11,024 nt of DNA, from positions 1 through 11,024 of the IMG/VR virus record IMGVR_UViG_3300012155_000036. One strand, 5' to 3'. Position 1 is the first letter of the stretch; the number at the start of each line of letters is the position of its first letter. The translations under genes and the position numbers were made by a program. Positions 1 to 11,024 of this stretch are shown here, piece by piece. A model generated the notes under the pieces. That model was not told the DNA's origin. It worked only from the letters and a program-made list of their open reading frames with translations, and made no database searches. This stretch comes from a virus (taxonomy: Duplodnaviria > Heunggongvirae > Uroviricota > Caudoviricetes).

Positions 1-185
1 GTCTGCGGCTGAATCTCCTGATAGTAAACAATGCCGCCGAACTGCCCGTGCACGTTCACCTCAAAGTAACGGCAATCAGGTTTGTAGTCGTATCCATCAC
101 CGTTGTTGCTTCCGGCAATAATGTCAGGGTGATTTCCTACTGCTTCGATCAGGTCGATGTTTCGCGTTGGTTTGAATGTAATCAT
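1..185 (-). CDS. N-terminal fragment (61 codons) of the gene following the tail needle, running off the left edge; by position the P22 gene-14 slot (internal virion / ejection-associated protein)
   Basis: ATG at 185..183 overlaps the needle stop codon (TGATG on the minus strand); frame is open to base 3. My translation: [61 protein letters not shown]. Not in the ORF track because it is truncated. Function is inferred from synteny only. Confidence 0.5.
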   Translation of the reverse strand, partial: MITFKPTRNIDLIEAVGNHPDIIAGSNNGDGYDYKPDCRYFEVNVHGQFGGIVYYQEIQPQ

Positions 186-886
186 CAGTCAATCAGCCCA
201 TGTAATCTAAGTGCCGTTTCAAGTGCCAGAATACGCTGCCGCGCCTGCTGCAAACCTGTAGCGAGGGATGCAACTTCGGATTGTGTGTACGTAGTGCCGA
301 CAGTGTATGACTGGTTAGCGTTGAATGAGCCAAGAAGTGGCGTACCTGTGGCTGCAGTCCATCCGGTATTTCTTGCTCCAACAACCTGAATTCCATCAAC
401 TGAATATGATGTTTTTACATCCAGCGGTGACGCAAGAGACTGCGATTCGGTTACGGTTTTCGATACGTAATCACTCTTAATGTCAGATACATCGCTTTCT
501 ACGCCATCCAGTCTTTTGTCAACAGTGACCAGATGCGCCTGAATATCGATAACCTCATCCAGCAAGTAATCAACATCGCTACGCAGTACGACTATCTTCC
601 CTTCGGCAGTTGTTAACCTGACCTCAAGGAGATTTATCGCTTTTGTGTTTGCGGTGATTCTTGTGTCGTGATCAGCCAGTTCGACATCCTGTTCATCGTT
701 TTTCACCTGAGCATCGTAAGCGCCCTGACCAGCCTGATTTGCCTTCCCGGCAATTGCGCCGACATCAGCCCCCTGATTAATGACATACAACAGGTAAGAC
801 TGGCTGAAGATATTGCGTGGAAGGATTGATGTATCGAGCCGCGTCGCCTGCACAATAACAGGGGTGTTGAGATTCGAATCAGCCAT
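185..886 (-). CDS. Tail needle protein, P22 gp26-like (233 aa)
   Basis: 233 aa, the length I recall for P22 gp26. N-terminus [18 protein letters not shown]...SYLLYVI and C-terminus ...[18 protein letters not shown]...[22 protein letters not shown] resemble what I remember of that family. ATG at 886..884 shares one base with the upstream stop (TAATG). It lies immediately after the gp10-like gene, as in P22. Confidence 0.88.
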
Positions 887-2304
887 TACTCAATCCTTAT
901 CTGGCAACCAGACAGGGTGACAGGTGACTTCGTGATAACGCGCAATTTGAAACCAATGTTTTTCCTGATGCGCCCTACTTTCTTCCACAAAACGCGTTTG
1001 TCGTAAACGAACGGTTCATTCTGCTCAATCATCTGCTCACGCCCGTAATTGATGCCGTCAGTGGTTGCAGAGAGAAAAAGGCGGTCAGCGTACTGCGCAA
1101 CGCCAGTTGAAGATTCAACTTCAAGGTCGAACACTCTGGCATTATCTGCTTTGAACAACGGAGTAAACAGCAGGTGTTCCTGTTGCTTGTCGTACTGGCT
1201 GCTGATATCGAACTGCAATTTCCCGGTCACGGATTCCAGCTTATCGCCGCACGTTATCTGATTGCCTTCGTAAATGAAGTCGATAGCGCGGTACACATCG
1301 TCATACAGGCCTGTTTTCAGTACACACCATTGCGGACCATTGGCGCTTGAAGATGCGTCGTACACGAGAACATGGCGCGGAAGGTGGATAATCAGCAACT
1401 CATGCGCATCAAATCGCAGAGACTCCATCACACCATCAGCCAGTTCATCAGCAGTGTAGGAGCGGAGAATTTTCTCAATGCTCGCGCTGGCGATTGGTGA
1501 CACCTGACCGGATCCGATGATGTAAACAGACGGAGCACCTGTTGCCGGATTGCTGATGAACGCATAAGAATCAGCGAATGGCGTTTTGCAGTAAGTCCCG
1601 GCGATGCCTTTTTGCACCATCAGTGATGGCTGTGCGACATACAAAGCTGCACCAACGGTGGTTGCACCAGTCAGGGAGAAATATTCAATCGTCGATGAAC
1701 CAAAGCAGACGATGAAGTCTCGCCATGTGCCGATGCCGATGATGCCGTCCGGCTGCGATTCTGCGCGATATTGTGCGCTGTAGCGGTCAGGATGCGATTC
1801 GTCTTCAAGATCAGTGATGAACCATGAATCAGTGCCGTCTTTTGACCACGCATAACGCCCACGCAAGCGCGTAATGTCGCGAACTGAACCTAACTCATAC
1901 TGCGTGAATCCGCTGTCTGTAGGCCAGTTTGAGACTGTTTTAACCGTGCCATCATAACGATACTCGACCAGTTGACCATTAACGCCTACAGCCTGAGATG
2001 TCCGACCATGTGCCATTGATACGCGACCACTTCCGGCGACGTCACCGACTTCGCTTTCGCCTTTGTAGAGCTTGCCGCCACACACACGATAAACAGCATT
2101 CTGAGCCATGTTGTACTCGACGCCTCGCGATACTCCGTTCACATCAGAACGTTTGGCAATGCCCGGGAATGAGCGAAGATATCCGCTGCTGTTGAGTATT
2201 TCTTTGGGTGTAGCCAGCATATTCACTGGCAGATAGTCGATATAGTCGGCGTTTCGAAAGTCTTTGCCGACACCTTTCATGAGCGGAAGTTGCTGAATCG
2301 GCAT
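886..2304 (-). CDS. Head-completion / tail-hub protein, P22 gp10-like (472 aa)
   Basis: 472 aa, the same length I recall for P22 gp10, in the expected position between the gp4-like and needle genes. ATG at 2304..2302 is preceded by GAGGTG with a 6 nt spacer. Confidence 0.85.
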
Positions 2305-2313
2305 TTATTCACC

Positions 2314-2775
2314 TCACGTACTCGGATCATCTTTCTCGATGTAAAACCGATTCCACGTAAACGCGCTTTTGTTACCACTACCGCGAGGCATGTCATTTCG
2401 CCGCTCAAGTGGTGGTATTTTGGTTAAAGCGATGCAGATTGTCTGATATGCACTGTCAGCAGCGGTCAGGAGAGCATCCGACGGCTGAATGACGTTATCC
2501 ATGCACACTTGCACAGCGAGTTTCAAAGCGACGCCATCATTTGCCCATGCAGGGATACCTGAATCATCGTCCGGTAACGGCATGATGCCGTTTTCTGTAT
2601 CAGCAAACTGATACCCAAGCTCGATACCTTTAGCCTGCCATGCTGCCATCATGTCTTCGAGGTCATTAATGGCATCTTCAATTGCCTGAGGGTCAGCATC
2701 TGTCAACGTGGCATTGGAATACAGCCCAGCTTTTCGTAAAGCCTTTAGAACGAGATCACCCTTCGTTTTCGCCAT
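2314..2775 (-). CDS. Head-completion / tail adaptor protein, P22 gp4-like (153 aa)
   Basis: N-terminus MAKTKGDLVLKALRKAGLYSNATLTD resembles my recollection of P22 gp4 (MQIKTKGDLVRAALRKLG...). Position is between the capsid and gp10-like genes. It ends 9 nt before the gp10-like start. Confidence 0.8.
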   Translation of the reverse strand: MAKTKGDLVLKALRKAGLYSNATLTDADPQAIEDAINDLEDMMAAWQAKGIELGYQFADTENGIMPLPDDDSGIPAWANDGVALKLAVQVCMDNVIQPSDALLTAADSAYQTICIALTKIPPLERRNDMPRGSGNKSAFTWNRFYIEKDDPST

Positions 2776-2944
2776 CTTCTTCCGCCTTAGCCAATTTTTG
2801 CTTCGTTGCGGTTTCTTCAGGAGTTTTTACCCAACCTTTTTTCAGGTGAGATTTAACCTCTTCGTCATCAACAATGATGTAATCGACAGCAAACTGACCA
2901 CAGATGATCATGTTGCCAGGCTTATAGAGCATTGTTCGTGCCAT
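2756..2944 (-). CDS. Small hypothetical protein (62 aa) between capsid and gp4-like genes, with an acidic C-terminal tail (AKAEEDGENEG)
   Basis: ATG at 2944..2942 is preceded by GGGAGA with a 5 nt spacer, directly after the terminator hairpin. It overlaps the gp4-like start by 20 nt in another frame. The ORF track extends it to a TTG at 2983, which would overlap the hairpin and capsid stop; I prefer the ATG start. Confidence 0.45.
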   Translation of the reverse strand: MARTMLYKPGNMIICGQFAVDYIIVDDEEVKSHLKKGWVKTPEETATKQKLAKAEEDGENEG

Positions 2945-2950
2945 TGTATT

Positions 2951-2985
2951 CTCCCAATAAAAATGGGGCCGAAGCCCCACCAAAA
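2951..2985 (-). terminator. Putative intrinsic terminator / attenuator immediately 3' of the major capsid gene
   Basis: Minus-strand RNA reads UAA-UUUUGG-UGGGGC-UUCG-GCCCCA-UUUUUAUU. A perfect 6 bp GC-rich stem (2964..2969 pairing with 2974..2979) closes a UUCG tetraloop and is followed by a U5AUU tract. Downstream genes must still be expressed, so any termination would be partial. Confidence 0.5.
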
Positions 2986-4239
2986 TTACTGCCCGGCAAT
3001 AACGATGCCCGTATATTCAGGAACAAGTACAGAGCAACCGTAAAGAGTGGTGAAACGAGCAGTGGTTACGCCTTTGATGTGGTCGAAGGAGTAAGACATG
3101 ATCAGCGTAGCGCCCTGCTCGGTGGTTGCTGTCATTACCTGTGGACCCTGACCAGTCGGGAACGCCAGTTTGCCGTACATCAGCTCAACAGAACCATCAG
3201 CCCAGAACAGGTTAGCCGGTGCGGCATTTTTGTTGAGAATGGTGATTGCTGCACCATTTGCCGCGTTAGCATCAACGTTTGCATATGGACGGCTGGCGAC
3301 ATCTGCGTTGTCAGGCGGCAGAATTTTCGGGGAGATAGTCACTGTCGTTCCGCTTACTGCCAGAACGCGGAATACCTGCGGCTGCCCGGTGGTATCTTTG
3401 GTAATCTGGTGTACAGAATTCACGCCTGCAATGGTGAACGCATCGCCAACCTGCAAACCTTCAGCAGATACCGTAATGGTCCCCTGTCGGTTATCCACTG
3501 GCATATCGTTAGCATCTTTCGCTTCAACCTTGTGCGCAGGTGCTGCTGCCAGCGTAATGGAAGTTGCTGTACCCTTCGGAACACGACCGGAAATATCGGT
3601 CTTGTAGCTATCGAAGGACGCAACCGGAGGGATCTGCGCTTTTTCGTATGCTGTCAGGGTTGCGCCCTGAGCATAGGCACGGTGACCAAGCTCGCCAGCA
3701 AGGTCTTTGTAGTTGAAGGGGTTCCAGAAAGAGCGGCGGTTGATACCCTGTGGTACACCAATCGCCGTCATGGTGGCATCAATACCTGCCGCACAGTTCC
3801 ACAAATCACGGCCCTGTGAACCAGTGGTTGAGTCAGCCATTGTGATCACGTTAGTAGCACGCTGCGTGACCATGGAAATCAGGTCAGAGTCAATCTGTGC
3901 AGCAAGGCGCATACCTGCGGCGCGACCAGCTTCAGTTTTATGTTCCGGGTCACGCATTTCACGCGCATCCAGAGTGTACAGAATGTTTTTCGGCTCCTTG
4001 AACACAGAAGGAACAAGGCGCTGAACCAGTGCTGTTGGCGTTTTGCCGCTGAGGTCTAGGCCTTCCTCAATGTTCATGTGGTAATGCTGCGGACGATACA
4101 GAACATCACCTGCTCGCTGCATTGCTGTATCACCGGGACGGAATTTTTTAGCGTTACGGGAAACTACGCAGGCGGCCTCAAAGCCTTCAACGTAGTTTTC
4201 GAACATGATTTCAAGGTCTTTTGCTAATTGGTTAGCCAT
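2986..4239 (-). CDS. Major capsid (coat) protein, P22/Sf6 gp5 family (417 aa)
   Basis: About 420 aa ORF directly after the scaffold gene, the arrangement in P22-like phages. ATG at 4239..4237 is preceded by GGAG with an 8 nt spacer. Followed by the terminator-like hairpin. Confidence 0.9.
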   Translation of the reverse strand: MANQLAKDLEIMFENYVEGFEAACVVSRNAKKFRPGDTAMQRAGDVLYRPQHYHMNIEEGLDLSGKTPTALVQRLVPSVFKEPKNILYTLDAREMRDPEHKTEAGRAAGMRLAAQIDSDLISMVTQRATNVITMADSTTGSQGRDLWNCAAGIDATMTAIGVPQGINRRSFWNPFNYKDLAGELGHRAYAQGATLTAYEKAQIPPVASFDSYKTDISGRVPKGTATSITLAAAPAHKVEAKDANDMPVDNRQGTITVSAEGLQVGDAFTIAGVNSVHQITKDTTGQPQVFRVLAVSGTTVTISPKILPPDNADVASRPYANVDANAANGAAITILNKNAAPANLFWADGSVELMYGKLAFPTGQGPQVMTATTEQGATLIMSYSFDHIKGVTTARFTTLYGCSVLVPEYTGIVIAGQ

Positions 4240-4257
4240 GCTTAATGCTCCGATAGG

Positions 4258-5151
4258 TTATTTTTTTGCCTTTTTAGCGGCGAAATACGGCGTCCAGTCA
4301 CCAGTTTCCAGCGCCTTGGCTTTCAGTTTGTCGAGGTTGTTGATTACTGCGCCGTTGCTCCCCTTAACTGTCGGGGTTGTGGCTGCCGTGGTTTTTGCTT
4401 TTGGCATGATTCTGGCCTTCGATTCGATACGTTCCAGCAGACGACCAATTGCTACGGGGTTGGTAGCTTCTGCCAGTTGCTTGCGCAGTTCAGCGTTGCG
4501 ACCGAGTGCCAGAACAACGATTTCCGGCTTCTCTGACTCAAACAAGATCGCGTTTTGTGTCTCGATGGGGATTTCCTCGAGTACGGCCTGCTCAGCTTCC
4601 TGATAGCCAGGAACTTTGAGAGCCTTAACACGTTGCTGATATTTGGATAATCGCTCTTGATAGGCAGCCTGAAGCTCCTGCTCCTTCTGCTTGCGAGCCA
4701 TCTCCTGTTGCTGGTACTTGCCGTTATCCTCTGCCCACTTAGCCATGCGTTGCTGGTAGATTTCTTCATCGAAACCGATGTCCTCATCATCCAGTTTTGG
4801 CATTCGCGGTGGTTGAGTGATTACCGGCTGCTGCTCGACGGGTTTCTGAGACTGACGCATCAGCTCTTTCAGCTCACGGTCTTTCTCTTTAATCGTCTTG
4901 CGCAGGTGTTTTACCAGTCCATGCTCTGCGCCATCTTCGCTGGTTGGCGAATCCAGCTTTTCGTCACCAAAGTAGAATTCCTGTTCTGATTCGTCGTCAT
5001 CAGTTTCAGTAGCTTCCTCTACATCATTGCCGGATGACTCACTGCCATCTTCTGTTTCGACTTCTTCAGCCAGTTCGACATCATCAGGAATCTGCTCTGA
5101 CGCGTCGGTTTCGATTTCAACTTCTGGTGTGTTTTCTGCCATCTGGTCCAT
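4258..5151 (-). CDS. Scaffolding protein (297 aa)
   Basis: Sits between portal and capsid genes; about 300 aa, as for P22 gp8. The N-terminal ~80 residues are extremely acidic, the middle is charged and helical-looking (QQQEMARKQKEQELQAAYQERLSKYQQRVKALK), and the C-terminus is basic (KLKAKALETGDWTPYFAAKKAKK), consistent with a coat-binding end. Confidence 0.82.
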   Translation of the reverse strand: MDQMAENTPEVEIETDASEQIPDDVELAEEVETEDGSESSGNDVEEATETDDDESEQEFYFGDEKLDSPTSEDGAEHGLVKHLRKTIKEKDRELKELMRQSQKPVEQQPVITQPPRMPKLDDEDIGFDEEIYQQRMAKWAEDNGKYQQQEMARKQKEQELQAAYQERLSKYQQRVKALKVPGYQEAEQAVLEEIPIETQNAILFESEKPEIVVLALGRNAELRKQLAEATNPVAIGRLLERIESKARIMPKAKTTAATTPTVKGSNGAVINNLDKLKAKALETGDWTPYFAAKKAKK

Positions 5152-5241
5152 TTGTTACCCCTGTTTACTCGATGTTCAGCCCATCGGAAGGCAATAGGGT
5201 GCCAGGCCTCATAAAGACAGCCATTGCACGTTATGGGTTAA

Positions 5242-7440
5242 TTACTGCTGTGGTTGTTGCTGAGTTGATTTTTGCAGGATGCTGCTGATGTCCATGCGCT
5301 GCGCATGGCCCTGTGCCTGACTTTTCAGGACAAGCTCTGCATCAGCACGGGCATTGTCTCCTTGCTGTTGCTGGAACTGTCCGAGCAGTTTCAGAGCCTC
5401 GCGGATATCAGATTTCTGCTGGCTATCAGCAGATGCGAGGATTTTCACAACATTTGCCGCTGCAACCTGAGCATCAGTCTGTGCCTGGAATGCTTTAACC
5501 TGAATGGCTGCCTGCTCGTTCTGCGCTTTCTGCAATTCAGCCTGACCAGCAAGAAGCTGACCTTGCGCAGCAACCATAGCCGGATCTGGCTGACTGGCCT
5601 GTTGTTGTTTCGCCTGCTCAACCATTTGCTGTTCTTCAGGCGTTCTCGGCTTGATAACGCCAGACAGAAGCAACTGATTGCGGTTGTATTCTTTCAGGTC
5701 GTCCATCCCTTCGCCGTCCATATTGTCGAGAATCATCGACGATACAAGGTCATGCTTCGGCGTTCCTGGCGGGATAAGTGCCAGCATGGAAAGTAACGAC
5801 TTAACCGTTGCATCACGGCGAGTAGCGAACGACTGACCGACATCGACAGTCACTTCATAGTTGCCCTGCGAAAGGTCATTAAGCGCGATAACCTGCCCTG
5901 TCTGACGGTCAATCACTTCACCAGTCATCAGCGCCACGTCATCGCTGCCGTCCTCATTAACGATACGCATCGGCGTATCACTGCCATAGACCTCACGCGC
6001 CATAGAAAGCCACACAACGCCAGCGCGGCGCATGGATTTAGCCATGTTGTCCATGTAGATATAGGACTGCGTGTCCATCCGGTTAAAAATGCTATCAACG
6101 GTATCGGTGGCGACGTTGCTCGGCATGTTCTCAAGCTGCGACGCACCTGTAATTTGCTGAATAGCCGTTCCGGTGTACTGCAATAGCCCGGCAAGAGCAG
6201 GAGGCATTTGTGTCGGAGGTGTCCAGCCAGCAACCTGAGCCTCTGAAATGACCGTTCCGTTTTTGTCCTTCTTGCTGGTCATGGGAAGAACTGCAGGTCT
6301 TTTCTTATTCCTCTCTGCCCAGTGATTCATTAATGGACCGGGAATGAAATCAACATCCACGATAGGAATGCCATCACCGCCAGCCTGAGTAGCGTTATCT
6401 GCAATCATGGAAACCATCAGGTTCTCAAGACGCTGTGCATCCATCGCTTTTGCTGCGTGGCCTTCGATTCGCTCCTGATTATCAACAAATGAACGACGCC
6501 CATATACCGGGATGAGAGGAATATGTTCACCCGGAATACGCTTCGGTTCTTCCAGCCATTCAGCGCCAGACAGAAGACCGCAATAAACGCGGCGTTTCTT
6601 CACTGTCCGCTCACCAATCAGTTCGAATGCGCCATCGGTTAGCTCGTCGACAATATCTTTGATTTGCTCTTCATCATAGATTGCTGTTTCTCCGCTGACA
6701 GGATTGCGCCACGCCGTGAGCTTCACCTTCTCTATGCGAACTTCGTAGTAGCGTCCAACATAGATGGCATCGGGCGTTGACCAGTCATACTGAGTACCAG
6801 TGTCATCACGAGAAAGGCTTGCCGCAATGGAATCAGGGTATTCAGCCTCGAACGCTTTAGGCGTCATGGAGAACATTTCCATAGCCCACATAGCATCAGA
6901 GCGGTCATATTGCTTGCTGTCCTGATCGAAGAAGACGCATGTCGCTGGGTCGTAAACAGGAAGAAGGCTGATGCGTCGCTGCTCGTTACTCGGATCCATT
7001 TCATCCTCGTAATCAGCACACATGCGGAAACAACCGAATCCGCCCGTTACAGCATCATCAAATGCGTTATCACACGCTTCGCCACCGGATGTTTCCTGAT
7101 AGTCAGCGCGGAATTTGCCGTTCATCTTTTCGGCTAACGCTTCCGATGCCTTATCGTCCTTCGGTCTGAATTTAACGCTGATGCGATTCTGTCGATACTC
7201 GCCAATGATGCGATCACATTCACGGGAAATCTTATTCAGTTCAAAGCGCGGGTAATGCTCAAACCTGCCTTCATCAAATGAGTAACCAGCGTTTGTGCTG
7301 CCTTCCCACTGTGCGCCGGATACCCGGACGAAACGTTGAGCCTCAATAATCTGCTCACGCATATCCTGCGTTGCTGACCAGGCATTATCAAAGTTGCACA
7401 GCACCTTGCGATGCCAGTCAGTCATCTTTTTTTCTGCCAT
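5242..7440 (-). CDS. Portal protein, P22 gp1 / Sf6 gp3 family (732 aa)
   Basis: 732 aa ORF immediately downstream of the large terminase (TGA-T-ATG junction). The long Gln/Ala-rich helical C-terminus (...PEEQQMVEQAKQQQ...AQNEQAAIQVKAFQAQ...QQQPQQ) resembles the C-terminal barrel region I recall in the P22 portal. Confidence 0.92.
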   Translation of the reverse strand: MAEKKMTDWHRKVLCNFDNAWSATQDMREQIIEAQRFVRVSGAQWEGSTNAGYSFDEGRFEHYPRFELNKISRECDRIIGEYRQNRISVKFRPKDDKASEALAEKMNGKFRADYQETSGGEACDNAFDDAVTGGFGCFRMCADYEDEMDPSNEQRRISLLPVYDPATCVFFDQDSKQYDRSDAMWAMEMFSMTPKAFEAEYPDSIAASLSRDDTGTQYDWSTPDAIYVGRYYEVRIEKVKLTAWRNPVSGETAIYDEEQIKDIVDELTDGAFELIGERTVKKRRVYCGLLSGAEWLEEPKRIPGEHIPLIPVYGRRSFVDNQERIEGHAAKAMDAQRLENLMVSMIADNATQAGGDGIPIVDVDFIPGPLMNHWAERNKKRPAVLPMTSKKDKNGTVISEAQVAGWTPPTQMPPALAGLLQYTGTAIQQITGASQLENMPSNVATDTVDSIFNRMDTQSYIYMDNMAKSMRRAGVVWLSMAREVYGSDTPMRIVNEDGSDDVALMTGEVIDRQTGQVIALNDLSQGNYEVTVDVGQSFATRRDATVKSLLSMLALIPPGTPKHDLVSSMILDNMDGEGMDDLKEYNRNQLLLSGVIKPRTPEEQQMVEQAKQQQASQPDPAMVAAQGQLLAGQAELQKAQNEQAAIQVKAFQAQTDAQVAAANVVKILASADSQQKSDIREALKLLGQFQQQQGDNARADAELVLKSQAQGHAQRMDISSILQKSTQQQPQQ

Positions 7441-7441
7441 A

Positions 7442-8857
7442 TCAACCTACACCACAAGGAATTGAGTAACTGGAATAGTCGGGTTGCGCAGCCGACTCCG
7501 GGCAATGCATACACATCATCAGCGCATCAGCCAGGTTAGGAGATGGAATACCGAGCTTCTGCTTCATTTCGACCTTAGTCATAAGCTCCAGCTTCCCGTT
7601 ATTATTGAATTTGCGCTGAATCTGCGTCAGTTCTGCAAACAGCTTCTCCAGCATCTTCTCGCCTATCGCTTCTTTGTCGAAACTCAGCATGTCGTCTGGG
7701 TCTGCATACTCACCGTGAACAACCGCACGATATGTCAGATACAGCCTGTCAGCCAGCGCGTAATAGAATTGCGCTCGCTTATTGCGGAATACATCGCCAA
7801 TAGTGCGAACGTTGTCGCCCTGCACGACTTCATCAGCCCATGCTCCGGCCTGGTAAGGCGCATCTTCATCGAATGGCGATTCGCTACCCTTGAACATCGT
7901 GGCGGTGATTTTCTTGCCGGAGAACGCTTCCGTTGTCTGTCTGCGTAGCCCGGCACCAACACCATCACCATCCCACAGGTAATGGTCAGCGCCGTCTTCA
8001 ATCGCCAGCGAAGTAGCCCAGTCAGCACCCTCGTTGATGTCCATCAGCAGACCTTCGGCAATGCGCTTAACTACCGAACCGTGACGCGATGCATAACCTT
8101 TAGCATCCGGCCCTGTATCTGACGGGTCATGTGCAGAAACAACAGCGCCTTTCGCTTTCCATCCGAGTTTCTTGTGCGCATCGGTTGCGGCTTCAAGCCA
8201 TTCACGTTTGATGATTGCCATATCACTTGCGCTTACCGGCTCACCAAGCCAGATGTGACGATACAGTGTCGGATTTCTGCGTTTGCACTCTTCCATCTCC
8301 AGACGGAGAACTTCAGGAAAGTGCGGGTTGTCGGTGTAGTTCACCGTCAACAGACAAATATCATCAGGAGGATTTACGACGAATCGCTGATAGGTATCGT
8401 CGAGGATGTTCTTCGGGTTAAAGCTCACCCATATTTCAGAGAACGGCTTACGGATGGTTGGAATCAGGATATCCCATGATTCCTTCGTTACCGCTTCCGC
8501 TTCTTCCACCCAGCAGATATCAATACCTTCGAGCGATTTAATCTTCGTCGGGTTGTTTTTAATGCCGTAGAACATGAATTCAGCATTCGTTCCGAGATGA
8601 CGAATCATTGAACGCTGAATTTCAAACTCAGCCGAATACCCTTCACGCTCGATGGTATCTTCAAGCAACCGGATTACCGAATCGCTGATACTGTTTTGCA
8701 GTTCACGAGCGCAGAGAATACGCACTGGCTGCCGACGCGCCGCTTCAACAAGCAGTCTCGCAATTGCCCATGACTTACCGCTACCTCGACCGCCTTTGGC
8801 GACTTTGTAGCGATGCGCCTCAATGAACGGTTCAAAGATAGGATTAATCGAGGTCAT
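7442..8857 (-). CDS. Terminase large subunit (471 aa)
   Basis: Walker A motif KGGRGSGKS near the N-terminus and a Walker B-like IDICWVEEAE. The N-terminus MTSINPIFEPFIEAHRYKVAKGGRGSGKSWAIARLL matches what I recall of Sf6 gp2. ATGA overlap with the small terminase stop. Confidence 0.93.
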   Translation of the reverse strand: MTSINPIFEPFIEAHRYKVAKGGRGSGKSWAIARLLVEAARRQPVRILCARELQNSISDSVIRLLEDTIEREGYSAEFEIQRSMIRHLGTNAEFMFYGIKNNPTKIKSLEGIDICWVEEAEAVTKESWDILIPTIRKPFSEIWVSFNPKNILDDTYQRFVVNPPDDICLLTVNYTDNPHFPEVLRLEMEECKRRNPTLYRHIWLGEPVSASDMAIIKREWLEAATDAHKKLGWKAKGAVVSAHDPSDTGPDAKGYASRHGSVVKRIAEGLLMDINEGADWATSLAIEDGADHYLWDGDGVGAGLRRQTTEAFSGKKITATMFKGSESPFDEDAPYQAGAWADEVVQGDNVRTIGDVFRNKRAQFYYALADRLYLTYRAVVHGEYADPDDMLSFDKEAIGEKMLEKLFAELTQIQRKFNNNGKLELMTKVEMKQKLGIPSPNLADALMMCMHCPESAAQPDYSSYSIPCGVG

Positions 8858-9279
8858 TTTCCGAATAGAGTACTCATCGGTGATGTTTCAATCTGTATTG
8901 CGCCGCCGTCTTTGCCGACAAGCTCGTTAGTTACCTTGTCGCCATACTTACGGGGATTCATTCGTGCCAGCGCCCATTTGCGGGTATCAACGCGAAGTCT
9001 TGCCTTTGCCACCTCAGCAGCATCTGGAATCGCAGTGTCAGCAATTTCGAATATCTCTTCGAAAATAGAATCAGCTCGTGCCTCAGTTGCCTTCGCGTAC
9101 TTGTCTCTAAATTCTTCATGCTCTGACAGCCAGCGAAATACAGTAGCCTTTGCTGGCATGCCTGGGCGCTTGCAAACCTTAACCAGACTTTCCCCGGAGG
9201 CAAGCAGCGCACAGATATCATCAGCCACCTCCGGCAGGTAATCCGAAGGGCGACCGACATTCTTTTTCTCAGTCGCCAT
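8854..9279 (-). CDS. Terminase small subunit (141 aa), Sf6 gp1-like
   Basis: 141 aa ORF directly upstream of the large terminase and coupled to it. Translation MATEKKNVGRPSDYLPEVADDICALL...KVCKRPGMPAKATVFRWL suggests an N-terminal helix-turn-helix DNA-binding domain and resembles my recollection of Sf6 gp1. Confidence 0.82.
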   Translation of the reverse strand: MATEKKNVGRPSDYLPEVADDICALLASGESLVKVCKRPGMPAKATVFRWLSEHEEFRDKYAKATEARADSIFEEIFEIADTAIPDAAEVAKARLRVDTRKWALARMNPRKYGDKVTNELVGKDGGAIQIETSPMSTLFGK

Positions 9280-9358
9280 ATTGATTATTTCCCTTCTGCT
9301 TGCTTATCCCATTCATCGCGGAATTTGGATGGGTTGTCGAAACCTTGAATTGCCATGT

Positions 9359-9613
9359 TTATGCTCCGGTAGTGAACAGGTCTAACGCTTCCTTCGATTT
9401 ACGCACCGCTTCGATAGTACGGGTCGTGATATCTGAATTAGCGCCACCTGACTGGAAGTGAATTTTGAATAGCTCAAGCTTCAGTTCGTCAGTGCCAATG
9501 AATTGAAATGCTTCTTCTGCGGCTGCGTTCTGGTTCATGACCAGTTTGTAAATCTCTAACTGGAATTTCTGTTCTTCAGTCATGGGAATAATCTCTGCCA
9601 TTGTTGGCTCCAT
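9359..9613 (-). CDS. Hypothetical small protein (84 aa; 80 aa if it starts at the second ATG, 9601)
   Basis: ORF upstream of the small terminase. The internal ATG at 9601..9599 has the better ribosome-binding site (GGAG, 6 nt spacer); the first ATG at 9613 has only a weak GGA. No family recognised. Confidence 0.5.
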   Translation of the reverse strand: MEPTMAEIIPMTEEQKFQLEIYKLVMNQNAAAEEAFQFIGTDELKLELFKIHFQSGGANSDITTRTIEAVRKSKEALDLFTTGA

Positions 9614-9704
9614 TTATCCGTTAAAGGGGATATCAGTTAAGTTATCCCGTGTAGGGTATAAGCCATTATCAAAGCCACTCTGTAGGGAATGGCTTTTGTA
9701 ATAA

Positions 9705-10085
9705 CTACTGTTCGCTTAGCTTCTGCTTCAGCAAGTAACCTTCGAGCATCCAGATTTTGTTTACAGCATTTTGCCGGGCAATCTTCCGACCAATTTCTGC
9801 ATCAAAGTTTTCCGGGCTTGCACAGGCACTCTCTCCGGTGACGGTGAAGCCATTCTTCAGCACCAGTACGCAGAAAGTGAGCAACTTCAATGGTGATAAA
9901 TCACGATCGCCTTCTTCTGGTTTTTCCCTGCCACAATATTCGTTGCTGGAAATGGCACCATTTCGTCCATCATAAGCAGTAAAGTAATGCTCGCTTTTAA
10001 TCACGTCTTCGATGTGCTGCGGGGTGATTCGCGGTGCCGTTTTGCCTTTCTCAACGATTTCTTTTTCGATTTGCTGGTCGTTCAT
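9705..10085 (-). CDS. Conserved phage protein (126 aa), possibly Gp49-like / DUF2829 family
   Basis: The motif ...LTFCVLVLKNGFTVTGESACASPENFDAEIGRKIARQNAVNKIWMLEGYLL resembles a family I recall as Gp49-like (DUF2829), which often sits near terminase genes. Family name is from memory and unverified. ATG at 10085. Confidence 0.55.
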   Translation of the reverse strand: MNDQQIEKEIVEKGKTAPRITPQHIEDVIKSEHYFTAYDGRNGAISSNEYCGREKPEEGDRDLSPLKLLTFCVLVLKNGFTVTGESACASPENFDAEIGRKIARQNAVNKIWMLEGYLLKQKLSEQ

Positions 10086-10272
10086 AATTATGACCCTGTG
10101 GAGTGGTTGCTTGATTAGGATGTCTTTCCATCAGTCCGCCACCACAAAGAATCTTTTTTGCCATAAGGCTGGAGGTTCATCTTTCAGTGGCTGCCAGTGT
10201 TATTTCCCCACTTACTGGCTTGGGTTGTTTCGTGGTACTGCCGTAATGTACAGACTGGATTAACCTGAGAAA

Positions 10273-10803
10273 TCACACCATTCCGGGCAAATACATTTGC
10301 ACTTCATTTGCCGCTCTCTCACGTGCAACATGAAGCAATCTTTTTCGCCCACCAACGCCCCACTTAGCCATTTGGCTTGCGCACTGGCTTATCGCTTTGG
10401 TTTCAGTATTGATGATGTGATCGATTCTATTCAGACGTGACATTGCGCCAACGCCGAGACGGACAACCGTTTTGAAAACTTCATAAACTTCGATTTCAAA
10501 TTCCGGCTTAATCCATGCTGCATATCTGATTGCCAGAAGTTCAACACCCCACACACCTGGTTCTGCACCACCTTTGATTATTTTAAGTGGTTGAATTTGT
10601 TCCAAAGTGCTTTTTTGCACTTTGGCCTCCAGTGCTTTTATGAAGCGTTTTATCTGCGCGCTACGCAAAAACTGGCTTGGGCGCTGTTGCTCTGTAGCCT
10701 CTCCATTTGCAACTGCTGCTGCATGGAGATCGTTTAAGTTGTAGCGTCCATCCTCATCAACACGAACGGACACACCATTGACAATAACTGTTGGGTACTT
10801 CAT
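10273..10803 (-). CDS. KilA-N domain-like DNA-binding protein (176 aa)
   Basis: N-terminal region ...VNGVSVRVDEDGRYNLNDLHAAAVANGEATEQQRPSQFLRSAQIKRFIKALE fits the KilA-N pattern as I remember it (DG-Y-N-DLH-A-G ... P-FLR). ATG at 10803. About 220 nt of apparently non-coding sequence lies upstream. Confidence 0.6.
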   Translation of the reverse strand: MKYPTVIVNGVSVRVDEDGRYNLNDLHAAAVANGEATEQQRPSQFLRSAQIKRFIKALEAKVQKSTLEQIQPLKIIKGGAEPGVWGVELLAIRYAAWIKPEFEIEVYEVFKTVVRLGVGAMSRLNRIDHIINTETKAISQCASQMAKWGVGGRKRLLHVARERAANEVQMYLPGMV

Positions 10804-11024
10804 CAGTGATTACCTTTTAGTGATGAACCTTGTCACACAGGATTCCGGCCCACAGAAAGGCACCGATCACCAAACCGGCATCCTCAAGGGTCATCCTGAA
10901 AGGTTCTGTGTTCAGAAGTCGCGCGTGTGAAGCGCGTTTGTTGCAGATATAAAGAAGCCCCGCGAATGCGAGGCTAAACCCTGGTATTTGTAATGACTGG
11001 CTCTTATCTCAACGCAGCCCCTTA

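What the first reader, a model, noticed from the sequence alone, without database searches (positions are those of the whole stretch)
185..8857. Mosaic module: Sf6-type packaging genes joined to a P22-type knob-less tail needle
The small and large terminase N-termini match my recollection of Sf6 gp1 and gp2. The needle, however, is 233 aa with a P22 gp26-like C-terminus (…[16 protein letters not shown]), whereas Sf6-type needles carry an extra C-terminal knob. The central part of the needle also looks different from what I recall of P22 gp26. This suggests recombination within the needle or tail module.
Basis: partly seen in the sequence, partly recalled or inferred. Interest (0 to 1): 0.4.

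Follow-up and report, generated by a model that had tools for sequence, protein, structure and literature searches.

The report
Known P22-like phage assembly-gene mosaic
This is the virion-assembly gene block of an ordinary E. coli P22-like prophage whose patchwork of Sf6-like packaging genes, CUS-3-like head genes and an HK620-like knob-less tail needle is real but already known from a sequenced phage and hundreds of prophages.

Summary
TerS (8854-9279, just outside the stated range) and TerL are Sf6-like. The needle (185-886) is 233 aa, ends in [16 protein letters not shown], has no knob domain, and its middle differs from P22 gp26.

1. The needle is not a P22/other hybrid. It is the known HK620/CUS-3 needle allele ("subtype A" of Leavitt 2013). 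It is 97% identical to CUS-3, 94% to HK620 gp26 (crystal structure 5BU5) and 60% to P22, with no internal breakpoint against its close relatives.
2. HK620 itself already pairs Sf6-type terminase with this needle.
3. A 5.2-kb CUS-3-type head block (2315-7497: gp4, orf62, coat, scaffold, portal and the last 18 codons of TerL) is 94-100% identical to CUS-3 but at most 56% to Sf6 or P22.

Phage Huey is collinear from TerS to the needle at 96% nucleotide identity. An E. coli assembly carries the block at 99%, and 317 of 5,426 complete E. coli genomes cover at least 80% of the window. All breakpoints fall on protein-interaction domain boundaries. The clearest case is the TerL C-terminal tail, which tracks portal type even across unrelated TerL families.

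Verdict: real, ordinary, already known.

The parts
1..188 (-). 5' end (62 codons) of the gp14 homologue (DUF2824 head-assembly/virion-stability protein); runs off the window
   Evidence: Its translation matches the CUS-3 gp14 N-terminus. The homologous gene is annotated in all relatives. It is shared with Sf6, HK620, CUS-3 and P22 at 84-97% nt.
185..886 (-). Tail needle (gp26 homologue), 233 aa, knob-less, HK620/CUS-3 'subtype A' allele
   Evidence: 97.0% identical to CUS-3 and Huey, 93.6% to HK620 gp26 (same sequence as PDB 5BU5, E=2e-136), 59.9% to P22 gp26, and 53% to Sf6 gp9 over the N-terminal part only. No PF16532 knob. The exact protein occurs on 13 public contigs.
684..886 (-). Needle N-terminal domain (residues 1-67), which plugs the gp10 hub; conserved across all P22-like types
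   Evidence: Nucleotide homology to Sf6 resumes at window 684 and to P22 at 657. 49-60 of 60 residues are identical in all six comparators. [quoted passage not shown]
185..683 (-). Needle shaft plus tip cassette (residues 68-233), the exchangeable part
   Evidence: No nucleotide match to Sf6 over 186-683. It is replaced by a knobbed shaft and tip in the otherwise similar FDAARGOS_1256 prophage.
886..2304 (-). gp10 homologue (tail hub), 472 aa
   Evidence: PF11134, E=6e-301. 98.5-99.4% identical to Sf6, HK620, CUS-3 and Huey, and 93.4% to P22.
2314..2775 (-). gp4 homologue (head-to-tail adaptor), 153 aa, CUS-3 type; left edge of the CUS-3-type block
   Evidence: PF11650. 100% identical to CUS-3 and 41-42% to Sf6, HK620 and P22. 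Homology to Sf6 and HK620 stops at window 2314.
2756..2944 (-). Small ORF annotated as 62 aa in relatives (the mechanical ORF call of 75 aa starts at TTG 2983); function unknown
   Evidence: Annotated as a 189-nt CDS in CUS-3, Huey and the E. coli prophages. 93-96% identical to these.
2962..2981 (-). Terminator-like GC-rich hairpin plus T-run immediately after the coat gene
   Evidence: Same position as the annotated 't coat' (Sf6), 'tGP5' (HK620) and stem-loop (P22) features.
2986..4239 (-). Coat protein, 417 aa, CUS-3 type. The I-domain lies at about 3229-3576 (residues 222-337).
   Evidence: PF11651. PDB 8SKG (CUS-3 coat) at E=1e-264 and 6MNT (CUS-3 I-domain) on residues 222-337. 94.2% identical to CUS-3, 99.3% to Huey, 29% to P22 and no hit to Sf6.
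4258..5151 (-). Scaffolding protein, 297 aa, CUS-3 type
   Evidence: 99.3% identical to CUS-3 and 33% to Sf6 and HK620.
5242..7440 (-). Portal protein, 732 aa, CUS-3 type
   Evidence: PF16510, E=1e-169. 97.1% identical to CUS-3, 55% to Sf6 and HK620, 34% to P22.
7445..7498 (-). TerL C-terminal tail (residues 454-471, ESAAQPDYSSYSIPCGVG), CUS-3 type; inferred portal-docking peptide and right edge of the CUS-3-type block
   Evidence: Identity to Sf6 gp2 stops after residue 453, and the tail equals that of CUS-3 and Huey. In 21 sampled E. coli records with a different portal, homology stops at or before the tail start (20 at query position 145, one at 106). The same tail sits on an unrelated P22-type TerL next to a CUS-3-type portal. 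Deleting the P22 TerL tail abolishes portal binding (PMC5290284).
7442..8857 (-). Large terminase, 471 aa, Sf6 type (ATPase plus nuclease)
   Evidence: PF04466. PDB 4IDH (Sf6 gp2) on residues 1-456. 100% identical to Sf6 gp2 over residues 1-453. No tblastn hit to P22 gp2 at E<=1e-3.
8854..9279 (-). Small terminase, 141 aa, Sf6 type, a variant allele.
   Evidence: PF20901. PDB 3HEF and 4DYC (Sf6 gp1) at E~1e-82. 90.8% identical to Sf6, HK620 and Huey, with all 13 differences (12 substitutions and one inserted residue) in the N-terminal ~85 residues. The exact allele is present in E. coli prophages. The CUS-3 TerS is a different type (30% identity) that shares only the last ~24-30 residues (window 8854-8942).
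9359..9601 (-). DUF2560 protein (80 aa as annotated in relatives; HK620 hkbM / Sf6 gp67 homologue)
   Evidence: PF10834, E=1e-43. 100% identical in CUS-3, Sf6 and HK620.
9705..10085 (-). Gp49 / Sf6 gp66 family protein, 126 aa
   Evidence: PF13876, E=3e-35. 99.2% identical to Sf6 gp66 and absent from CUS-3 and HK620.
10273..10803 (-). KilA-N domain protein, 176 aa
   Evidence: PF04383, E=7e-18. 100% identical to WP_000877024.1 in E. coli prophages.

Best explanation
The window is the start of the late operon of a P22-like (Lederbergvirus) temperate podophage or prophage of Escherichia coli. It encodes a complete, conventional headful-packaging and virion-completion set. TerS recognises pac through its N-terminal helix-turn-helix domain. 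TerL, an ATPase plus nuclease, docks on the procapsid portal and pumps DNA. [quoted passage not shown]

The module is a mosaic of three kinds of segment already described for this phage group:
(a) Sf6/HK620-type terminase (window 7498-9279).
(b) A co-inherited CUS-3-type block of mutually contacting head proteins (2315-7497: the TerL C-terminal tail, portal, scaffold, coat, orf62 and gp4).
(c) The near-universal gp10 plus the HK620/CUS-3 'subtype A' knob-less needle (185-2314).

Breakpoints sit where one protein-protein interface ends and the next begins:
- TerS residue ~112, before its TerL-binding tail.
- TerL residue 453, before its portal-binding tail.
- The gp4/gp10 intergenic gap.
- Needle residue ~67, after its hub-plugging domain.
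- The needle/gp14 boundary.
Recombinants therefore keep interacting partners matched.

Shown here: the identities, the breakpoints, the absence of a knob, the occurrence of the same arrangement elsewhere, and the co-variation of the TerL tail with portal type. Inferred from characterised homologues: the biochemical roles, and that the interfaces are the reason the breakpoints sit where they do.
For: Gene order and Pfam families. The per-protein identity tables against CUS-3, Huey, HK620, Sf6 and P22, the 200-nt sliding identity and the exact HSP boundaries. The boundaries are: CUS-3 5-8942 in one HSP at 95.7%; Huey 1-9279 in one HSP at 96.0%; HK620 1-2314 and 7498-9285; Sf6 1-185, 684-2314, 7498-9279 and 9361-10246; P22 only 6-203 and 657-2305 at 83-84%.

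Needle: a flat 16-20/20 identity per bin to CUS-3, HK620 and Huey. It matches PDB 5BU5, which has the HK620 gp26 sequence, at 2e-136 over residues 1-233. The knob family PF16532 is absent, with Sf6 gp9 as positive control. The literature describes 11 subtypes of the P22-type tip, with subtype A (HK620) in E. coli phages, and extensive horizontal exchange in virion genes (PMC3741392).

Prevalence: 317 of 5,426 complete E. coli genomes hold a place covering at least 80% of the window. 13 contigs carry the exact needle protein in the same gene order. One metagenome contig is 100% identical over 10,886 nt, and an E. coli assembly is 99.0% identical over 10,248 nt.

TerL tail and portal co-variation. 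There is experimental support that the P22 TerL tail binds the procapsid portal (PMC5290284). Solved structures exist for close homologues of TerS, TerL, coat and needle.
Against: No expression or virion data exist for this element, so whether it is an inducible prophage is unknown. The claim that interfaces explain the breakpoint positions is an inference from a handful of genomes plus a 60-row sample of 644 E. coli records, not a formal recombination analysis. The TerS N-terminal region is only ~86% nt identical to the Sf6, HK620 and Huey alleles, so no isolated phage in the collection matches the window uniformly above 95% in that gene. Only prophage and metagenome contigs do. The key comparative paper (Casjens & Thuman-Commike 2011) could not be read here, so the names 'CUS-3 type' and 'Sf6 type' for head-gene clusters rest on my recollection plus the identities measured here.
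Confidence: 0.9

Rival explanations
1. One reading: a recent recombinant in which Sf6-type packaging genes were joined to a Salmonella-phage P22-type needle, with a recombination junction inside the needle gene that explains its odd central part.
For: TerS and TerL are Sf6-like, and the needle has the P22 architecture, length and C-terminal motif. Needle identity to P22 is patchy: high in residues 1-80 and 141-180, low in 81-140 and 181-220. Needle tips do get swapped in related prophages.
Against: The needle is only 59.9% identical to P22 gp26 but 93.6-97.0% identical, uniformly along its length, to the HK620, CUS-3 and Huey needles. At the nucleotide level P22 matches only 6-203 and 657-2305 at 83-84%, so no segment was recently derived from P22. 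HK620 carries Sf6-type TerS and TerL and this same needle. The patchy P22 profile matches the published divergence between tip subtypes A and C. The intervening head genes are CUS-3 type, which this reading ignores.
Confidence: 0.03
2. The mosaic is an assembly artefact: a chimeric metagenome contig that joins reads from different co-occurring P22-like prophages.
For: The only 100% identical source found is a metagenome assembly contig (ENA ERZ27241829 k141_88385). P22-like prophages share long near-identical stretches (gp10, TerL) where assemblers can switch templates.
Against: The same arrangement occurs in an isolate genome assembly at 99.0% nt over 10,248 nt, in two further independent run assemblies at 99.0-99.1%, in the isolated phage Huey in one 9.3-kb HSP, and in hundreds of complete E. 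coli chromosomes.
Confidence: 0.01
3. The module belongs to a defective prophage remnant and no longer makes virions, so its combination of parts has no functional meaning.
For: P22-like remnants are common in E. coli genomes; more than 100 genomes carry a several-gene remnant including a needle gene (PMC3741392). Nothing here tests inducibility.
Against: All 12 ORFs are intact and full length relative to characterised homologues. The source contig continues with gp14, gp7, gp20, gp16, immunity-region genes and a tailspike. The same combination is carried by a plaque-forming phage, Huey (PMC11990801).
Confidence: 0.06

Closest known systems
Escherichia phage Huey (PQ850609; BASEL-associated Lederbergvirus isolate)
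   Same: Same gene order and the same combination: Sf6-type TerS and TerL, CUS-3-type TerL tail, portal, scaffold, coat and gp4, and a 233-aa knob-less needle. One 9,285-nt alignment at 96.0%. Proteins are 97-99.8% identical except TerS.
   Different: TerS is the canonical Sf6 allele (90.8% to the window; the N-terminal region is ~86% nt). Upstream genes (KilA-N, gp49-family) were not compared because the fetched Huey locus L005 starts at TerS. The needle gene is mis-annotated 'tail needle knob' in the record although it is 233 aa and knob-less.
Enterobacteria phage CUS-3 (CP000711)
   Same: One 8,948-nt alignment at 95.7% from gp14 to the 3' end of TerS. TerL 99.8%, portal 97.1%, scaffold 99.3%, gp4 100%, gp10 98.9%, needle 97.0%.
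   Different: The CUS-3 TerS is a different type (30% identity) that shares only the C-terminal ~24-30 residues. Its coat I-domain region is 80-82% nt against 96-97% for Huey. CUS-3 lacks the gp49-family and this KilA-N gene upstream.
Enterobacteria phage HK620 (AF335538) and its gp26 needle (PDB 5BU5, 5BU8, 5BVZ)
   Same: Same TerS and TerL type (90.8% and 98.7%). Same gp10 (99.4%) and the same knob-less 233-aa needle type (93.6% over the full length), for which crystal structures exist. Nucleotide homology covers 1-2314 and 7498-9285.
   Different: Its head genes are Sf6 type (portal 56%, scaffold 33%, gp4 42%, coat no hit), and its TerL tail is Sf6 type.
Shigella phage Sf6 (AF547987)
   Same: TerS 90.8%, TerL 100% over residues 1-453, gp10 98.5%, gp66 homologue 99.2%, and the needle N-terminal ~67 residues.
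   Different: A different portal, scaffold, coat and gp4 type and a different TerL tail. Its needle has a longer shaft and a PF16532 knob (282 aa).
Salmonella phage P22 (BK000583)
   Same: The same overall module architecture. gp10 is 93.4% identical. The needle has the same domain plan, length and C-terminal ...HGLID motif.
   Different: The terminase is unrelated at the threshold used. Portal 34%, coat 29%, gp4 41%, needle 59.9%, with two offset 14-residue indels.

Membership tests
P22-like phages (genus Lederbergvirus) virion assembly module | Syntenic late-operon order TerS-TerL-portal-scaffold-coat-small ORF-gp4-gp10-gp26-gp14 | tested here: met
   ORF map compared with the annotated P22, Sf6, HK620 and CUS-3 records.
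P22-like phages (genus Lederbergvirus) virion assembly module | Family-specific protein domains: P22_portal, P22_CoatProtein, P22_Tail-4 and Phage_stabilise | tested here: met
   PF16510 1e-169, PF11651 4e-77, PF11650 7e-41, PF11134 6e-301.
CUS-3-type head (procapsid) gene cluster | Portal, scaffold, coat and gp4 close to CUS-3 and distant from the Sf6 and P22 types | tested here: met
   97.1%, 99.3%, 94.2% and 100% to CUS-3, against at most 56% to Sf6 or HK620 and at most 41% to P22. The coat matches the CUS-3 capsid structure 8SKG at 1e-264.
Sf6-type terminase | TerS of the Sf6_terminase family with high identity to Sf6 gp1 | tested here: met
   PF20901 at 9.6e-45. 90.8% identity. PDB 3HEF and 4DYC at ~1e-82.
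Sf6-type terminase | TerL ATPase and nuclease body identical or nearly identical to Sf6 gp2 | tested here: met
   100% over residues 1-453. PDB 4IDH.
Sf6-type terminase | Sf6-type TerL C-terminal tail (...ALVREETEIYVPSSSGW) | tested here: not met
   The window ends ...ESAAQPDYSSYSIPCGVG, as in CUS-3 and Huey. The TerL is therefore an Sf6-type body with a CUS-3-type tail.
P22-type (knob-less) tail needle, tip subtype A (HK620) | High full-length identity to HK620 gp26, including the C-terminal tip domain | tested here: met
   93.6% over residues 1-233. Residues 141-233 are 90 of 93 identical. The subtype definition comes from PMC3741392.
P22-type (knob-less) tail needle, tip subtype A (HK620) | Conserved N-terminal hub-plugging domain | tested here: met
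   Residues 1-60 are 49-60 of 60 identical to all comparators, including P22 and Sf6.
P22-type (knob-less) tail needle, tip subtype A (HK620) | Trimeric coiled-coil fibre with a triple beta-helix and an inverted coiled-coil tip | not tested
   Inferred only, from 94% identity to the crystallised HK620 protein (5BU5). No trimer prediction was run because the tool folds single chains.
Sf6-type knobbed tail needle | C-terminal PF16532 (Phage_tail_NK) knob domain | tested here: not met
   Sf6 gp9 scores 8.7e-119. The window needle gives no hit at E<=10. tblastn to Sf6 gp9 aligns only residues 1-146.
P22 gp26 sensu stricto (tip subtype C, Salmonella phages) | High identity to P22 gp26 along the shaft and tip | tested here: not met
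   59.9% overall, 22/60 in residues 81-140 and 16/40 in residues 181-220, with two offset 14-residue indels.

The most novel reading that the evidence does not exclude
The real junction between the Sf6-like packaging genes and the head genes lies inside TerL, 18 codons before its stop. The short C-terminal tail (…DYSSY(S/N)IPCGVG) behaves as a portable portal-docking cassette. It accompanies the CUS-3-type portal on an Sf6-type TerL (this window, CUS-3, Huey). It also does so on an unrelated P22-type TerL (E. coli PKF8 and Ec15103 prophages; phage EC.P3, the sampled one of four phage records that match at >=99%). Sf6 and P22 carry different tails next to their own portal types. If this has not already been formalised, it gives a natural swap series that defines the minimal TerL-portal specificity determinant. 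[quoted passage not shown] I recall Casjens & Thuman-Commike (2011) noting this co-variation, so the probability that it is new is low.
Probability: 0.12. Interest if true: 0.35.

Novelty: already known. Interest (0 to 1): 0.12.

Why it matters
It matters little as a discovery. It is one more example of the well-documented module shuffling among P22-like phages. Every protein in it has a closely related, structurally solved homologue, and the same combination exists in a cultured phage and hundreds of E. coli prophages.

Its modest value is illustrative. The breakpoints map with single-codon precision onto protein-protein interface boundaries: the TerS tail with TerL, the TerL tail with the portal, gp4 with gp10, and the needle plug with the hub. 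These positions could guide the design of chimeric packaging motors or needle-tip swaps. The variant TerS DNA-binding domain may also mark a different pac specificity.

Tried and rejected
- Pfam on the needle gave no family. Controls show that P22 gp26 and HK620 gp26 also have no significant Pfam family, so this is a gap in the library and not a sign of novelty.
- Rfam at gathering thresholds, tRNA search and repeat search over the whole window found nothing beyond short chance repeats. The promoter-like count was below the shuffled expectation. The terminator scan gave 20 sites against 10.9 expected, and I interpret only the post-coat hairpin.
- I tried to read Casjens & Thuman-Commike 2011 (by PMID and a guessed PMC id), Bhardwaj 2009 (PMC2713385), Leavitt 2013 Virology (PMC3643300) and Bhardwaj 2016 (PMC4697157). 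None is held, so statements about their content are marked as recollection.
- I did not run structure prediction of the needle. A crystal structure of a 94%-identical protein exists, and the tool folds monomers only, which is meaningless for a trimeric coiled coil.
- I considered and rejected 'recombination inside the needle', because identity to close relatives is flat along it.
- I considered and rejected 'assembly chimera', because independent assemblies and an isolated phage share the arrangement.
- The two locally divergent patches looked at first like possible novel segments. These are portal 6201-6400 (72-73% nt to CUS-3, Huey and EC187792) and TerS 9001-9279 (86-88% to Sf6, HK620 and Huey). 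Both are common prophage alleles: 94 and 20 E. coli records at >=99%.

Full report
**What is in the window.** All long ORFs lie on the minus strand. In transcription order they are:
- a KilA-N protein (10803-10273)
- a Gp49/Sf6-gp66-family protein (10085-9705)
- a DUF2560 protein (9601-9359)
- TerS (9279-8854)
- TerL (8857-7442)
- portal (7440-5242)
- scaffold (5151-4258)
- coat (4239-2986)
- a small ORF (2944-2756)
- gp4 (2775-2314)
- gp10 (2304-886)
- the needle (886-185)
- the first 62 codons of gp14 (188-1)

Pfam confirms Sf6_terminase, Terminase_3, P22_portal, P22_CoatProtein, P22_Tail-4 and Phage_stabilise, and KilA-N and Phage_gp49_66. No tRNA, Rfam family or meaningful repeat is present. 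A terminator-like hairpin follows the coat gene at 2981-2962. Sf6, HK620 and P22 have annotated stem-loops at the same position. GC content is flat at 44-54%.

**Checking the observation.**
- TerS is 90.8% identical to Sf6 gp1, and TerL is 100% identical to Sf6 gp2 over residues 1-453. P22's terminase gives no hit at E<=1e-3.
- The needle is 233 aa and ends [16 protein letters not shown].
- The 'no knob' claim was tested with a positive control. Sf6 gp9 hits Pfam PF16532 (Sf6-type needle knob) at 8.7e-119, while the window needle gives no hit to it even at E<=10.
- The middle of the needle does differ from P22 gp26. Identity in 20-residue bins is 14-19/20 for residues 1-80. It falls to 13, 3 and 6 of 20 for residues 81-140. 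It recovers to 16/20 for residues 141-180, falls to 8/20 for residues 181-220, and is 11/13 at the end.
- P22 has 14 extra residues after position 75, and the window has 14 extra around positions 111-124. The identical length of 233 aa is therefore a coincidence of two offset two-heptad indels.

Two things in the observation are off. The stated range (185-8857) leaves out the TerS gene. And the module is described as two parts when it has at least three.

**What it is.** Megablast of the window against phage genomes puts CUS-3-type phages on top: phiv205-1, CUS-3, Huey, Kapi1 and Sf101 at 95-96% over 80-86% of the window. Sf6 covers only 33%. Per-protein comparison and a 200-nt sliding identity scan resolve the structure, and the HSP boundaries give the breakpoints:
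- CUS-3 aligns to window 5-8942 in one piece (95.7%).
- Huey aligns to 1-9279 in one piece (96.0%).
- HK620 aligns to 1-2314 and 7498-9285.
- Sf6 aligns to 1-185, 684-2314, 7498-9279 and 9361-10246.
- P22 aligns only to 6-203 and 657-2305, at 83-84%.

So window 2315-7497 is a CUS-3-type block, shared with CUS-3 and its close relatives such as Huey but not with Sf6, HK620 or P22. It holds gp4, the small ORF, coat, scaffold, portal and the last 18 codons of TerL. These proteins are 94-100% identical to CUS-3 but at most 56% to Sf6 or HK620 and at most 41% to P22. This block sits between segments shared with Sf6 and HK620. The window differs from CUS-3 itself mainly in TerS. The CUS-3 TerS is of another type (30% identity) and shares only the last ~24-30 residues.

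**The needle.** It is 97.0% identical to the CUS-3 and Huey needles, 93.6% to HK620 gp26, 59.9% to P22 gp26, and 53% to Sf6 gp9 over the N-terminal part only. Identity to CUS-3, HK620 and Huey is flat along the protein (16-20/20 in every bin), so there is no breakpoint inside it relative to its relatives. The best PDB match, 5BU5 (also 5BU8 and 5BVZ), has the HK620 gp26 sequence and aligns over residues 1-233 at E=2e-136. Leavitt et al. 2013 reported that 95 of 164 P22-like genomes have P22-type tips. These fall into eleven sequence subtypes up to ~50% divergent. Subtype A (HK620) is found in E. coli phages and subtype C (P22) in Salmonella phages (PMC3741392). The 'odd central part' is therefore the known A-versus-C divergence and not a recombination scar. 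HK620 already pairs Sf6-type TerS and TerL with this needle, so the pairing that prompted the finding is not a new junction.

**Is there needle recombination at all?** Yes, in the population but not in this needle. The E. coli FDAARGOS_1256 prophage has the window's exact TerS allele (100%) and CUS-3-type head genes (97.5-99.3%), but a 317-aa knobbed needle. Nucleotide homology to the window is interrupted over 188-682. The exchangeable unit is therefore the shaft plus tip (residues ~68-233). It is bounded by the conserved N-terminal hub-plug domain and by the gp14 start. [quoted passage not shown]

**How common is the arrangement?** 317 of 5,426 complete E. coli genomes have a place covering at least 80% of the window. 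The exact needle protein occurs on 13 public contigs, all in the same gene order. A metagenome contig (ENA ERZ27241829 k141_88385) is 100% identical over 10,886 nt and is presumably the source. An E. coli assembly (GCA_017777015.1) is 99.0% identical over 10,248 nt, with all proteins from orf126 to the needle (every window gene except KilA-N, which lies outside the match) at 97.6-100%. Huey, a plaque-forming temperate coliphage placed near CUS-3 and HK620 (PMC11990801), has the same combination.

**How it works, and why the breakpoints are where they are.** Functions are inferred from characterised homologues, all with solved structures: Sf6 gp1 (3HEF, 4DYC), Sf6 gp2 (4IDH), the CUS-3 coat (8SKG) and I-domain (6MNT), and the HK620 needle (5BU5). 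Each breakpoint coincides with the edge of an interaction surface.
- *TerS.* All 13 differences from Sf6 gp1 (12 substitutions and one inserted residue) fall in the N-terminal ~85 residues. Homology with the otherwise unrelated CUS-3 TerS begins at residue ~113 and becomes near-identity over the last ~24 residues (ELxGKDGGAIQIETSPMSTLFGK). This is consistent with a C-terminal segment that stays with its TerL partner (that this segment binds TerL is my recollection of Sf6 and P22 work and was not tested here).
- *TerL.* Identity to Sf6 stops at residue 453, and the last 18 residues equal those of CUS-3 and Huey. I tested whether this tail follows the portal. In 60 rows sampled evenly from 644 E. 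coli records matching window 7242-7642, 34 carried tail plus CUS-3 portal. In 21, homology stopped at or before the tail start (20 at query position 145, one at 106). Five had the portal without this TerL, and none had the tail without the portal.
- *The portal-only class.* The PKF8 and Ec15103 prophages have a P22-type TerL: 92% identical to P22 gp2 over residues 1-485 and not detectably related to the window's TerL. Yet it ends ...EIDYSSYNIPCGVG next to a portal 99.3% identical to the window's. P22's own TerL ends ...KKIPAPIRPVRRGR.
- *Isolated phages.* EC.P3 matches this chimeric TerL to residue 498, and four phage records match it at >=99%. All 12 sampled Salmonella phage records with a P22-type TerL align only to residue 479-485.
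- *Experimental support.* Deleting P22 TerL residues 483-499 abolishes binding to the procapsid portal (PMC5290284).

The tail is thus very probably the portal-docking peptide, and it is inherited with the portal. [quoted passage not shown]

The left edge of the CUS-3-type block is the gp4/gp10 intergenic gap. gp4 binds the portal and travels with it, whereas gp10 is 93-99% identical across all types.

**Comparison with the known, and novelty.** The element is a member of the P22-like (Lederbergvirus) phages with:
- a CUS-3-type head cluster
- an Sf6-type terminase whose TerL carries the CUS-3-type tail
- a subtype-A knob-less needle

It fails the tests for an Sf6-type knobbed needle and for P22 gp26 in the strict sense. 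Mosaicism of exactly this kind is the textbook property of the group (PMC3741392; PMC2629481; PMC11990801). I recall that Casjens & Thuman-Commike 2011 define these head-gene types and discuss terminase/portal co-variation. That paper, and three others on the needle and TerS, are not held in the library, so that part is recollection.

Novelty: already known. Interest: low (0.12). The most novel reading not excluded is that the TerL tail is a portable portal-specificity cassette across unrelated TerL families, but this is probably already in the literature (probability of being new about 0.12).

**Limits.** There are no expression or induction data. The co-variation test is a sample and not a census. 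No formal recombination statistics were run. The trimeric structure of the needle is inferred from 94% identity to a crystallised homologue and was not modelled.

Noticed in passing
window 7445-7498 (minus strand; TerL residues 454-471); L014 2940-2987: The TerL C-terminal tail (…DYSSY(S/N)IPCGVG) co-varies with portal type and not with TerL family. It is found on the Sf6-type TerL here and on an unrelated P22-type TerL in the E. coli PKF8 and Ec15103 prophages and phage EC.P3, always next to a CUS-3-type portal. [quoted passage not shown]
   Followed up: partly
window 8943-9279 (minus strand; TerS residues 1-112): The TerS N-terminal DNA-binding and oligomerisation region is a distinct allele. 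It has 12 substitutions plus a one-residue insertion relative to Sf6, HK620 and Huey, and is ~86% nt identical. The allele is present at >=99% in 20 complete E. coli records, against 191 records at 80-90%. It might mean a different pac specificity.
   Followed up: partly
window 6201-6400 (minus strand; portal residues ~347-413): A 200-nt patch of the portal gene is only 72-73% identical to CUS-3, Huey and the EC187792 prophage, although the flanks are 94-100% identical. The patch is 100% identical in other E. coli prophages: 94 records at >=99% and 236 at 80-90%. It looks like two alleles of an internal portal segment that re-assort.
   Followed up: partly
window 3201-3600 (minus strand; coat residues ~213-346): The coat gene is 80-82% nt identical to CUS-3 in this stretch but 96-97% to Huey and an E. 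coli prophage, while the rest of the gene is 98-100%. The stretch coincides with the I-domain (the PDB 6MNT match covers residues 222-337), so the surface-exposed insertion domain appears to be exchanged separately from the HK97-fold core.
   Followed up: partly
L008 11174-12127 (E. coli FDAARGOS_1256): A prophage with the window's exact TerS and CUS-3-type head genes carries a 317-aa knobbed needle. Its coiled-coil shaft is 35 residues longer than in Sf6 gp9 through extra 'ADHETRI'-like repeats. This shows both tip swapping and shaft-length variation on one backbone.
   Followed up: partly
L005 8391-9092 (phage Huey, PQ850609): The Huey needle gene is annotated 'tail needle knob' although it encodes a 233-aa knob-less HK620-type needle 97% identical to the window's. 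This is an annotation error in the public record.
   Followed up: yes
window 2962-2981 (minus strand): A GC-rich hairpin followed by a T-run lies 5 nt after the coat stop codon, inside the mechanically called 75-aa ORF. It is at the same position as the annotated post-coat terminator or stem-loop of Sf6, HK620 and P22. The small ORF therefore probably starts at the ATG at 2944 (62 aa), as annotated in relatives.
   Followed up: partly
window 9280-11024: The region upstream of TerS is itself a patchwork. DUF2560 is shared with CUS-3, Sf6 and HK620. The gp49-family gene is shared with Sf6 only (99%). The KilA-N gene is absent from all four reference phages but 100% identical in several E. coli prophages. 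Another terminator-like hairpin lies at 10975-10956 (minus strand).
   Followed up: no
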